Assembly (NCBI RefSeq): GCF_003334255.1
Contig: NZ_QOWU01000081.1
DNA from: Escherichia coli
GTDB lineage: Bacteria; Pseudomonadota; Gammaproteobacteria; Enterobacterales; Enterobacteriaceae
DNA: 12,747 nucleotides
Reading direction: 5' to 3' (one strand)
How positions within the stretch are numbered: the stretch's first letter is position 1; each line of letters begins with the position of its first letter. The position numbers and the translations under genes were made by a program. Shown here piece by piece: positions 3,223 to 3,583 of this stretch. Under the pieces are notes generated by a model. The model searched no databases. It was not told the origin of the DNA and worked only from the letters and a program-made list of their open reading frames with translations.

Positions 3223-3378
3223 TTACTCCTCAGGTTCGTAAGCTGTGAAGACAGCGACCTCCGTCTGGCCGGTTCGGATTCGTACCTCGCAGAGGTCTTT
3301 CCTCGTTACCAGTGCCGTCACAATGACGGTTAAACAGATGACGATCAGGGCGATTAACATCGCCTTTTGCTGCTTCAT
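3223..3378 (-). CDS. hok: Hok/Gef-family type I toxin (51 aa), closest to HokC/Gef
   Basis: Product MKQQKAMLIALIVICLTVIVTALVTRKDLCEVRIRTGQTEVAVFTAYEPEE: single transmembrane helix plus the conserved RKDLCEV-IRTGQTEVA motif, near-identical over most of its length to HokC/Gef as I recall it. Confidence 0.9.
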   Translation of the reverse strand: MKQQKAMLIALIVICLTVIVTALVTRKDLCEVRIRTGQTEVAVFTAYEPEE

Positions 3379-3435
3379 AGCCTGCTTCCCCTTGCCTTTC
3401 GGCACGTAAGAGGCTAACCTACATTTGTGAGACAT
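3223..3435 (-). CDS. mok: Mok-like reading frame (in-frame N-terminal extension of hok, 70 aa)
   Basis: Same-frame ORF starting 19 codons upstream of the hok ATG, as in the annotated mokC/hokC arrangement. Confidence 0.55.
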   Translation of the reverse strand: MSHKCRLASYVPKGKGKQAMKQQKAMLIALIVICLTVIVTALVTRKDLCEVRIRTGQTEVAVFTAYEPEE

Positions 3436-3505
3436 AGATTGGGCCTCAGATTAATGTTAAGCGTCTTGCAGGACGCGAAATGTTAACTGGGGCTTTTCTC
3501 TATCT
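3436..3505 (+). ncRNA. sok: Putative Sok-like antisense RNA, opposite the hok mRNA leader and mok start region; coordinates approximate
   Basis: Position inferred from hok/sok locus architecture only; I could not define the promoter or 3' end with confidence. A GCGTC/GACGC hairpin lies at about 3460-3475. Confidence 0.25.
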
Positions 3506-3554
3506 GCCTTTCAGTGTTCATGCCTGAGACAGATAGCCTCAAGCACCCGCAGCC

Positions 3555-3583
3555 ATTCTACTTAACTCACGTCACCTCGCCAA
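3555..3583 (-). promoter_or_regulatory. Candidate promoter of the hok/mok mRNA
   Basis: On the minus strand: TTGGCG (3578-3583), 17-nt spacer, TAGAAT (3555-3560). This gives a leader of about 110 nt before the mok start, consistent with hok-family mRNAs. Confidence 0.4.

What the first reader, a model, noticed from the sequence alone, without database searches (positions are those of the whole stretch)
3223..3583. hok/mok/sok-type type I toxin-antitoxin locus embedded in the prophage cargo region
A Hok/Gef-family toxin (51 aa) with an in-frame Mok-like extension, a candidate promoter giving a ~110-nt leader, a 3' fold-back element (3190-3215) and a terminator. It lies immediately upstream of the unknown two-gene cassette and may stabilise the prophage or contribute to abortive infection. 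The antisense Sok RNA is inferred by architecture but not delineated.
Basis: partly seen in the sequence, partly recalled or inferred. Interest (0 to 1): 0.35.

Follow-up and report, generated by a model that had tools for sequence, protein, structure and literature searches.

The report
Intact hokD/mok/sok toxin-antitoxin locus in prophage
This is an ordinary, complete copy of the well-known hok/mok/sok RNA-controlled toxin-antitoxin module (hokD type), sitting in a Qin/Rac-like E. coli prophage and found in about three quarters of complete E. coli genomes.

Summary
On the minus strand lies a 51-aa Hok/Gef peptide, 100% identical to E. coli K-12 HokD (RelF), with an in-frame 70-aa mok ORF. 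Upstream is a 170-nt leader that matches Rfam RF01794 at 120.5 bits (E 1e-27). A promoter-like site puts the mRNA start at about 3548.

Three corrections:
1. The locus extends further 3' than reported, to about 3133.
2. The hairpin at 3194-3215 is the 3' stem-loop kept by the processed mRNA. It is not the fold-back inhibitor (fbi). The real fbi is at 3161-3173 and pairs with the mRNA 5' end (tac, 3537-3548). The terminator is at 3137-3154.
3. Sok can be delineated. It is on the plus strand at about 3427-3497, with promoter TTGCCT-17-TAACCT at 3392-3420. That promoter is identical to the experimentally tested sokW promoter of phage 933W/Sp5.

Removing the 3' end in silico switches tac from fbi to the upstream complementary box, as in the plasmid R1 model. 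The whole fold is conserved across seven hok mRNAs.

The full locus is 100% identical in many strains, and 4100 of 5426 complete E. coli genomes hold at least 80% of it. K-12 keeps only a truncated copy. The "unknown two-gene cassette" next to it matches RosmerTA defence-system models.

Verdict: already known, low interest.

The parts
3555..3583 (-). hok/mok mRNA promoter: -35 TTGGCG (3583-3578), 17-nt spacer, -10 TAGAAT (3560-3555)
   Evidence: Consensus scan. The -10 is conserved as TAGAAT/TACAAT/TATAAT in the homologues. The predicted start, 7 nt downstream, coincides with position 1 of the Rfam model.
3133..3548 (-). Full-length hok mRNA, about 416 nt, from the inferred start to the end of the terminator U-run
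   Evidence: MFE -167 to -170 kcal/mol, z = -6.1 against shuffles. On 7 hok mRNAs, 82.6% of cells are paired against 36-44% when partners are slid, and 32 pairs change on both sides against 7-16.
3537..3548 (-). tac (translational activator element): the mRNA 5' end, GGGUGCUUGAGG
   Evidence: Pairs with fbi in the full-length fold and with ucb in the 3'-truncated fold.
3489..3495 (-). ucb (upstream complementary box / anti-SD), AAGCCCC
   Evidence: Pairs with tac once the 3' end is removed in silico. GCCCC is invariant in 7 homologues.
3444..3447 (-). mok Shine-Dalgarno sequence, GAGG
   Evidence: Read from the sequence, 6 nt upstream of the mok AUG. GAGG is the mok SD in R1 (PMC9841398). It pairs with dcb in the folds.
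3223..3435 (-). mok ORF (70 codons plus stop), in frame with hok and sharing its stop codon
   Evidence: ORF list. The same layout is annotated for mokW in 933W and mokC in K-12. It is 89% identical to MokW.
3416..3440 (-). Sok-target hairpin holding the mok AUG in its stem, with loop CUCACAA (contains CUCA, a YUNR-type motif)
   Evidence: Folds. The unpaired Sok 5' tail is complementary to the loop and the upper stem. The YUNR reading is from prior knowledge of R1 and was not tested.
3410..3414 (-). dcb (downstream complementary box), GCCUC, pairing with the mok SD
   Evidence: Folds. GCCTCTTAC is invariant in 7 homologues.
3223..3378 (-). hok CDS (51 aa plus stop): MKQQKAMLIALIVICLTVIVTALVTRKDLCEVRIRTGQTEVAVFTAYEPEE. 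Its SD-like stretch AAGGGGAAG lies at 3385-3393.
   Evidence: 100% identical to K-12 HokD. Pfam HOK_GEF E 3.5e-23. RefSeq names the identical protein HokD.
3238..3240 (-). Tyr47 codon UAC within UUACGAA, the known TadA A-to-I (Tyr to Cys) recoding position of hok genes
   Evidence: Read from the sequence; TACGAA is invariant in 6 of 7 homologues. Editing of K-12 hokD is reported at 6% (PMC12214031). Not tested here.
3194..3215 (-). 3' stem-loop GGCGGGGGA/UCUCCCGCC just after the stop codon; expected 3' end-protecting hairpin of the processed (truncated) mRNA.
   Evidence: Folds. Helix 17 is conserved, with 2 compensated pairs. The role is inferred from R1, where mutations in the last stem-loop of Tr-hok abolish toxicity (PMC9841398).
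3161..3173 (-). fbi (fold-back inhibitory element), CCUCAACGCACCC
   Evidence: Forms 12 bp plus one bulge with tac, -21.5 kcal/mol. Present in the MFE. Helix 1 is 90% paired across homologues. Compensatory changes are seen by eye against R1 (U-A to C-G) and hokB (U-A to C-G).
3133..3154 (-). Intrinsic terminator of the hok mRNA: AACCCGC-UUCG-GCGGGUU followed by UUUG
   Evidence: Terminator scan. Identical in K-12 hokD and in the Rac-type locus.
3392..3420 (+). Sok promoter: -35 TTGCCT (3392-3397), 17-nt spacer, -10 TAACCT (3415-3420). It overlaps the hok SD region on the other strand.
   Evidence: Identical in sequence to 933W. Primer YO-421 of PMC8621323 replaces exactly this -10, and the 'pro-less' construct loses antitoxin activity. 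The site matches only 7 of 12 consensus positions, so the simple scan did not report it.
3427..3497 (+). Sok antisense RNA, about 71 nt: 9-nt unpaired 5' tail, long hairpin, U-run
   Evidence: Coordinates projected from the sokW misc_RNA annotation of 933W. Fold -29.6 kcal/mol, z = -4.9. It is complementary to mRNA positions 52-122, which include ucb, the mok SD and the mok AUG. Transcription in this strain has not been shown.

Best explanation
This is an intact hokD-type hok/mok/sok type I toxin-antitoxin module carried in the early operon of a Qin/Rac-like lambdoid prophage of E. coli.

Proposed mechanism, by homology with plasmid R1 hok/sok and phage hokW/sokW:
1. A promoter at 3555-3583 (minus strand) makes a stable mRNA of about 416 nt.
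2. In the full-length RNA the 5' end (tac) pairs with fbi near the 3' end. This locks the RNA in a form that is neither translated nor bound by Sok.
3. Slow 3' trimming back to the 3194-3215 stem-loop removes fbi. Tac then pairs with ucb, and the leader refolds.
4. The mok start region becomes accessible. Mok translation is needed to start translation of the overlapping hok frame.
5. The short, unstable Sok RNA (plus strand, about 3427-3497) is made constitutively. It pairs across ucb, the mok SD and the mok AUG, blocks mok and therefore hok translation, and marks the duplex for RNase III.
6. When Sok supply stops, Hok (identical to K-12 HokD/RelF) is made and damages the inner membrane.

What is shown here:
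- the ORFs;
- the family matches;
- the tac-fbi pairing and the tac-ucb switch, as predicted folds;
- conservation of the structure;
- identity of the Sok promoter with a tested one.

What is inferred:
- transcription of both RNAs in this strain;
- 3' processing;
- translational coupling;
- RNase III cleavage;
- the biological role.
For: - Protein: Pfam HOK_GEF E 3.5e-23. Hok is 100% identical to K-12 HokD.
- Leader: Rfam RF01794 120.5 bits, full model. The same model hits R1-type hok, hokC and hokW loci, but not the truncated K-12 hokD.
- Promoter and terminator at the expected places.
- Full-length MFE pairs positions 1-12 with 376-388, z = -6.1. The tac-fbi duplex is -21.5 kcal/mol and is present in all six loci tested, with a different sequence in R1.
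- In-silico truncation moves tac onto ucb.
- Structure conserved on 7 hok mRNAs: 82.6% of cells paired against about 40% when slid, and 0 of 500 shuffles reach the observed value on four of the five measures and 1 of 500 on the fifth (further pair types).
- Sok coordinates and promoter are identical to annotated sokW. Sok folds as a tail plus hairpin, z = -4.9.
- HokW toxicity, sokW antitoxin activity, the sokW northern signal and the promoter mutant are reported in PMC8621323.
- The R1 mechanism is summarised in PMC9841398.
- Overexpressed HokD is reported to lyse cells (bioRxiv 10.1101/2025.08.07.668861).
Against: - No transcript data exist for this strain.
- The Sok promoter matches only 7 of 12 consensus positions and was not found by the simple scan.
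- In the predicted full-length MFE, ucb pairs with GGGG next to the hok SD, and the mok SD pairs with dcb in both forms. In the published R1 model, ucb sequesters the mok SD. This is a thermodynamic prediction only.
- NCBIfam Hok models score below their curated cut-offs (47.5 against 73 bits).
- Chromosomal hokA, hokB and hokC loci tested earlier did not mediate post-segregational killing (as summarised), so an intact sequence does not guarantee a phenotype.
- The conserved structure was derived from the window sequence itself, which favours it over the slid controls.
Confidence: 0.9

Rival explanations
1. The locus is intact in sequence but phenotypically silent. It would be a selfish or neutral passenger that is transcribed and kept repressed by Sok, with no measurable stabilisation, defence or lysis role, as reported for other chromosomal hok loci.
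For: [quoted passage not shown] Genomes carry a median of 2 and up to 9 related copies, so cross-talk or redundancy is possible. K-12 tolerates a decapitated copy.
Against: Every regulatory element is conserved, and helices carry compensatory changes, which points to purifying selection on regulation. The close homologue hokW-sokW has measurable effects on growth arrest and phage yield after induction.
Confidence: 0.25
2. The main role is in the prophage's own lytic cycle. On induction Sok is lost, Hok is made before holin and endolysin, and lysis and phage release are advanced, as shown for hokW-sokW in Sp5.
For: PMC8621323 reports RecA-dependent loss of sokW RNA, HokW production about 1 h before endolysin, growth arrest delayed by about 40 min, and half the phage yield in the deletion mutant. 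The window locus is 93% identical with an identical Sok promoter. It lies sense-oriented inside the early operon, so induction would send transcription through it.
Against: This rests on a single study of one homologue, which sits at a different place in its phage, next to attR. It is not known whether the prophage in the window is inducible. It resembles the defective Qin and Rac elements.
Confidence: 0.35
3. The main role is addiction or exclusion. The module would either kill cells that lose the prophage region, or act as abortive infection when an incoming phage shuts off host transcription.
For: R1 hok/sok stabilises plasmids by post-segregational killing and reduced T4 plating from a high-copy plasmid. 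Hok genes are about four-fold enriched in prophages. The locus sits next to a RosmerTA-like defence pair.
Against: Across genomes, hok is not enriched near defence systems (section heading and discussion of the bioRxiv survey). Chromosomal loci that were tested failed at post-segregational killing. A prophage excises rarely, and a cured cell keeps neither RNA for long. Nothing here tests this explanation.
Confidence: 0.25
4. The whole thing is a chance ORF and chance hairpins, not a real hok locus.
For: The promoter and terminator scans alone are at chance level.
Against: Rfam E 1e-27, Pfam E 3.5e-23, 100% identity to HokD, and conservation in 4100 of 5426 genomes.
Confidence: 0.01

Closest known systems
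hokW/mokW/sokW of Stx2 phage 933W / Sakai prophage Sp5
   Same: - 93% nucleotide identity over the locus.
- Mok/Hok 62 of 70 residues identical, with mok in frame with hok.
- Identical Sok promoter, and identical tac and fbi sequences.
- Carried on a lambdoid (pro)phage.
- Experimentally a type I TA system.
   Different: - Position in the phage differs. hokW lies beside attR, downstream of the tail genes. The window locus lies between the replication genes and the Q region.
- The Sok 5' tail and mok N-terminus differ at several bases, so cross-repression is not guaranteed.
- The Hok C-terminus differs (TAYEPEE against VDYESEK).
- The terminator sequence differs.
hokD (relF) of the Qin cryptic prophage, E. 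coli K-12
   Same: Identical 51-aa Hok. Identical hok SD-to-terminator segment, including fbi. Same type of prophage and the same place relative to Q, dicF and dicB.
   Different: K-12 has lost everything upstream of the hok SD: promoter, tac, ucb, mok start and sok. relBE sequence replaces it, and there is no Rfam leader hit. The window carries the complete, presumably ancestral form.
hok/mok/sok (parB) of plasmid R1, the paradigm
   Same: - Same set of parts in the same order: promoter, tac, ucb, mok SD, mok, Sok promoter overlapping the hok SD, hok, 3' stem-loop, fbi, terminator.
- The Rfam leader model matches both.
- Tac-fbi pairing is present in both, with different sequence.
   Different: - Hok is about 44% identical (figure given for HokW against R1 Hok).
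- The leader hairpins differ in length.
- The frame of mok relative to hok varies across the family. It is in frame here and in mokC and mokW, and out of frame in mokB and in a Rac-type locus.
- R1 is plasmid-borne with a demonstrated post-segregational killing role.
hokC (gef)/mokC/sokC of E. coli
   Same: 75-77% nucleotide identity over the locus. Identical tac. An in-frame mok. sokC is annotated at the equivalent place.
   Different: It is a chromosomal core-genome site next to dnaJ/nhaA, not a prophage. It lacks the 18-nt insert in the Sok hairpin. In K-12 an IS186 sits 20 bp after the stop codon.

Membership tests
hok/sok (Hok/Gef) type I toxin-antitoxin family | A small hydrophobic Hok/Gef-family peptide of about 50 aa | tested here: met
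   Pfam PF01848 HOK_GEF E 3.5e-23, model 1-42 of 42. 100% identical to K-12 HokD. NCBIfam Hok subfamily hit at E 6e-13, but below the curated cut-off.
hok/sok (Hok/Gef) type I toxin-antitoxin family | An upstream overlapping mok reading frame with its own SD, starting about 55-60 nt before hok | tested here: met
   The ORF at 3223-3435 starts 57 nt upstream of the hok AUG, with GAGG 6 nt before its AUG. It is homologous to annotated mokW and mokC. Translational coupling itself cannot be tested here.
hok/sok (Hok/Gef) type I toxin-antitoxin family | A conserved, structured hok mRNA leader | tested here: met
   Rfam RF01794 120.5 bits against a gathering score of 59, full length, on the hok strand. 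The same model hits six reference hok loci.
hok/sok (Hok/Gef) type I toxin-antitoxin family | Long-range tac-fbi pairing between the 5' end and the 3' UTR of the full-length mRNA | tested here: met
   12 bp plus a bulge, -21.5 kcal/mol. Present in the MFE. 90% of cells paired across 7 homologues. Compensatory differences against R1 and hokB.
hok/sok (Hok/Gef) type I toxin-antitoxin family | An alternative tac-ucb pairing once the 3' end is removed (the refolding switch) | tested here: met
   The predicted fold of the RNA truncated at 3186 pairs positions 1-8 with 54-60. This is a prediction only. The ucb to mok-SD pairing of the closed form was not reproduced by the MFE.
hok/sok (Hok/Gef) type I toxin-antitoxin family | A cis-encoded antisense Sok RNA gene, with promoter and terminator hairpin, opposite the mok start region | tested here: met
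   The promoter TTGCCT-17-TAACCT is identical to that of sokW, which was tested by mutation. Coordinates are projected from the sokW annotation. The fold is a tail plus hairpin plus U-run. This is sequence-level only; no expression data exist for this strain.
hok/sok (Hok/Gef) type I toxin-antitoxin family | Hok is toxic, Sok neutralises it, and the duplex is cleaved by RNase III | not testable with these tools
   Reported for the 93%-identical hokW/sokW. Lysis is reported for overexpressed HokD. Nothing was measured here.
RosmerTA defence system (neighbouring cassette, not the finding itself) | An RmrT toxin gene directly upstream of an RmrA gene (HTH plus zinc-peptidase antitoxin) | tested here: met
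   PADLOC RmrT E 4.6e-25 (2407-3057) and RmrA E 6.2e-105 (1323-2429), with overlapping genes on the same strand. RmrA carries HELGH. That the 'Rmr' models stand for RosmerTA is from prior knowledge.

The most novel reading that the evidence does not exclude
Prophage hok loci may be wired to induction by their orientation.

- In the window, hok lies in the sense direction inside the long early operon: ydaS/ydaT, replication genes, QueH, hok, RosmerTA, then the Q region.
- In 933W, hokW lies just inside attR, on the same strand as int/xis. After excision and circularisation, early-left read-through would also enter hokW in the sense direction.
- In both layouts, antiterminated early transcription would run head-on into the Sok promoter. 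It would also supply hok-sense RNA whose 5' end is not tac.

This could explain the so far unexplained RecA-dependent disappearance of sokW RNA and the burst of HokW. Under this reading the module works as an induction-timed lysis accelerator rather than as an addiction module.
Probability: 0.15. Interest if true: 0.45.

Novelty: already known. Interest (0 to 1): 0.1.

Why it matters
It matters little as a discovery. The hok/sok family has been studied since the 1980s, this allele is present in most E. coli genomes, and a 93%-identical phage copy has been characterised.

It is useful in three small ways:
- It shows what the complete form of K-12's truncated hokD (relF) looks like.
- It gives base-level coordinates for mok, Sok, tac, ucb, fbi and the processing hairpin. 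RefSeq annotation omits these and names only hokD.
- It places the locus next to a RosmerTA-like pair in a prophage cargo spot.

Tried and rejected
- NCBIfam: only sub-threshold Hok hits. The family call therefore rests on Pfam and on identity to HokD.
- PADLOC: no model matches Hok itself.
- Rfam at a permissive E-value in 3000-3700: only weak hits far below gathering scores, treated as chance. These were rsmX at 19.9 bits, isrK at 18.3 bits (3133-3214) and a nematode snoRNA.
- The Rfam family is called 'sok antitoxin', but it matches the hok-sense strand in every locus, including K-12 hokC, where sokC is annotated on the other strand. It therefore identifies the leader and does not delimit Sok.
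- The simple promoter scan missed the Sok promoter. I placed it by homology instead.
- MAFFT shifted the R1 fbi by a few columns. The unpaired cells in helix 1 are therefore partly alignment error. The R1 and hokB compensatory changes were read by eye.
- I considered whether the 3190-3215 hairpin could be the fbi. It cannot: it has no complementarity to the 5' end and pairs within itself.
- I considered whether the in-frame mok is special. It is not: the frame differs among close relatives through a 1-nt indel.
- The first Python call failed on a file name and was repeated.

Full report
**What is in the sequence.** The finding lies on the minus strand.
- An ATG ORF at 3223-3435 encodes 70 aa (MSHKCRLASYVPKGKGKQA-MKQQK...). 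Its last 51 aa start at an internal ATG at 3378.
- The 70-aa product matches Pfam HOK_GEF over the full model (E 3.5e-23).
- The 51-aa product is 100% identical to HokD (RelF) of E. coli K-12.
- Rfam's family RF01794 ('sok antitoxin') matches 3373-3548 at 120.5 bits against a gathering score of 59 (E 1.3e-27), full length.
- That match is on the same strand as hok and ends at the hok AUG. The same holds in K-12 hokC, where sokC is annotated on the opposite strand. The model therefore recognises the hok mRNA leader, not Sok itself.

**Transcript ends.**
- A sigma-70-like site lies at 3583-3555: TTGGCG, 17-nt spacer, TAGAAT.
- An intrinsic terminator lies at 3154-3137.
- These are the only such sites on this strand in 3050-3700. 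One of each is what shuffles give, so they count only because of where they lie.
- The promoter puts the start at G3548, which is position 1 of the Rfam model. The terminator is shared with K-12 hokD and a Rac-type locus.
- The mRNA is therefore about 416 nt (3548 to 3133), with 113 nt before the mok AUG and 170 nt before the hok AUG.

**Structure of the mRNA.**
- The full-length RNA folds far better than shuffles (-170 kcal/mol, z = -6.1).
- In the MFE its first 12 nt (GGGUGCUUGAGG, 3548-3537) pair with CCUCAACGCACCC at 3173-3161, forming 12 bp and one bulge.
- As an isolated duplex this is worth -21.5 kcal/mol. The equivalent 5'-3' duplex is found in 933W hokW, a Rac-type hok, a plasmid hokD, an intact hokC and an R1-type hok. 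In the R1-type locus the sequence is different: GGCGCUU with AAGCGCC.
- Read by eye, R1 replaces the U-A pair at tac position 4 with C-G. K-12 hokB replaces the U-A pair at position 7 with C-G.
- This is the tac/fbi interaction that defines the closed, inert hok mRNA (PMC9841398).
- When the RNA is cut in silico after the 3194-3215 hairpin, tac pairs instead with AAGCCCC at 3495-3489 (ucb), as in the published open form.
- One detail does not match the R1 scheme. In the predicted closed form, ucb pairs with GGGG next to the hok SD, and the mok SD pairs with dcb in both forms. This is a thermodynamic prediction and I give it little weight.
- Projected on seven hok mRNAs, the whole fold keeps 82.6% of cells paired, against 36-44% when partners are slid. 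It shows 32 pairs changed on both sides against 7-16. No shuffle out of 500 reaches the observed value on four of the five measures; one of 500 does on the count of further pair types.
- Two caveats apply to that test. The structure was derived from the window sequence, and four of the seven sequences are close relatives.

The hairpin at 3194-3215 (GGCGGGGGA/UCUCCCGCC) is real, but it pairs within itself and has no complementarity to the 5' end. By position it corresponds to the last stem-loop of the processed R1 mRNA, which protects that RNA from 3' exonucleases. The fbi and the terminator lie further downstream, outside the reported span 3223-3583. The locus should be given as 3133-3583.

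**Delineating Sok.**
- Phage 933W carries hokW/mokW/sokW, 93% identical to the window locus, with sokW annotated as a 71-nt antisense RNA.
- There are no indels between the two sequences in that stretch, so sokW projects onto 3427-3497 on the plus strand.
- That RNA folds as a 9-nt free 5' tail, a long hairpin and a U-run (-29.6 kcal/mol, z = -4.9).
- It is complementary to mRNA positions 52-122, which include ucb, the mok SD (GAGG, 3447-3444) and the mok AUG.
- Its tail is complementary to the loop and upper stem of the hairpin that holds the mok AUG (3416-3440).
- Upstream lie TTGCCT (3392-3397), a 17-nt spacer and TAACCT (3415-3420). This is a weak consensus match that the scan missed, but it is identical to 933W.
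- Takada et al. replaced exactly this -10 (primer YO-421) and lost antitoxin activity. They also detected sokW RNA by northern blot and showed HokW toxicity, partial dependence on RNase III and Hfq, and inner-membrane localisation.
- The antisense gene is thus supported by close homology to a tested one. It is not supported by data from this strain.

**Context.**
- The window matches E. coli chromosomes end to end at 99.4-99.5%.
- It is a Qin/Rac-like lambdoid prophage. The plus strand carries racR, DicF (10238-10289), dicB and an exonuclease gene.
- The minus strand carries one long early operon: ydaS, ydaT, replication genes, DUF1627, DUF977, QueH, hokD, two further genes and DUF968. In strain 118UI this is followed by RusA and Q.
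- K-12's Qin has hokD at the same relative place. There, homology stops just upstream of the hok SD, relBE sequence replaces the leader, and there is no Rfam hit. The window shows the complete form of the gene that K-12 holds decapitated.
From prior knowledge these are the RosmerTA defence pair.

**How common it is.**
- The 451-nt locus is 100% identical in many strains.
- At least 80% of it is present in 4100 of 5426 complete E. coli genomes. Genomes with any match hold a median of 2 and up to 9 related places.
- Related copies are in 79 phage records and 753 plasmid records.
- A recent survey found Hok in almost 80% of Enterobacteriaceae genomes and about four-fold enrichment in prophages.
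- RefSeq annotates only 'hokD' here, without mok or Sok.

**Mechanism and role.** The most likely mechanism is the canonical one:
1. A stable mRNA is locked by tac-fbi.
2. Slow 3' trimming releases tac, which pairs with ucb.
3. [quoted passage not shown]
4. Unstable Sok blocks mok and triggers RNase III cleavage.
5. Hok is made when Sok is no longer supplied.

The role is open. The only measured role for a prophage copy is faster growth arrest and about two-fold more phage release after induction. Tested chromosomal loci failed at post-segregational killing.

**An untested idea from orientation.** In the window, hok is in the sense direction within the early operon. In 933W, hokW sits just inside attR on the int/xis strand, so early-left read-through would reach it in the sense direction only after excision and circularisation. 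Either way, induction would drive transcription head-on into the Sok promoter. That could account for the unexplained loss of sokW RNA after induction.

**Verdict.** The locus is already known, ordinary and very widespread, so interest is low.

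Noticed in passing
window 1323-3057 (-): The 'unknown two-gene cassette' next to hok matches PADLOC models RmrT (216 aa, E 4.6e-25) and RmrA (368 aa, HTH plus HELGH peptidase, E 6.2e-105; also NCBIfam spr1629-family antitoxin below cut-off). This is a RosmerTA-type defence/TA pair. RefSeq calls the genes 'hypothetical' and 'HTH domain-containing'.
   Followed up: partly
window 10238-10289 (+) and 10477-10850 (+): DicF sRNA (Rfam 62 bits), followed by dicB and a DUF1482 (ydfD-like) gene. racR, ydaS and ydaT lie at 7427-8760. The window is a Qin/Rac-like prophage immunity and early region.
   Followed up: partly
window 3238-3240 (-): The Tyr47 codon UAC of hok sits in UUACGAA, the tRNA-Arg-anticodon-like motif edited by TadA (Tyr to Cys). 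Editing of K-12 hokD is reported at 6% (PMC12214031). TACGAA is conserved in 6 of the 7 hok genes aligned. hokB, which encodes Cys there in its DNA, has TGC.
   Followed up: partly
window 3373-3548 (-); L005 602-754 (-): Rfam family RF01794, named 'sok antitoxin', matches the hok-sense strand in every locus tested. This includes K-12 hokC, where sokC is annotated on the opposite strand. A hit therefore marks the hok leader, and its strand is opposite to the real Sok.
   Followed up: yes
window 3394/3395 (the AAAGG-CAAGG junction); L003, L007, L008: A 1-nt indel (T present in the Rac-type, pE92 and hokC loci; absent in the window, 933W and R1-type) lies inside the Sok -35 / hok SD region. It changes the Sok -35 hexamer (TTGCCT against TTGACC). 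In the Rac-type locus mok is annotated out of frame with hok. hokC also carries the T, but its mok is annotated in frame, so the indel alone does not set the mok frame. Mok's amino-acid sequence is evidently not conserved.
   Followed up: partly
window 3388 (-), within CAAGGGGAAG: Among the seven loci compared, this allele alone has G instead of A in the hok SD region (GGGG against GGAG). In the predicted closed fold, these four G pair with the CCCC of ucb.
   Followed up: no
window 3616-4302 (-): A QueH (epoxyqueuosine reductase, DUF208) homologue is encoded in the prophage early operon directly upstream of hok. It matches phrog_3217 (E 2e-138). This is a tRNA-modification gene carried as phage cargo.
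   Followed up: no
window 9327-9773 (-): A 148-aa hypothetical protein (phrog_6315, unknown function, no PADLOC hit) is encoded on the opposite strand to its neighbours, between the DUF1391 gene and DicF. It is possibly another cargo gene.
   Followed up: partly
L001/L012 (933W 58460-61670) and L011 (933W 1-1363): hokW and its neighbours L0139-L0142 lie on the int/xis strand just inside attR. They become downstream of int only in the excised circular phage, the same geometry as lambda sib retroregulation.
   Followed up: partly
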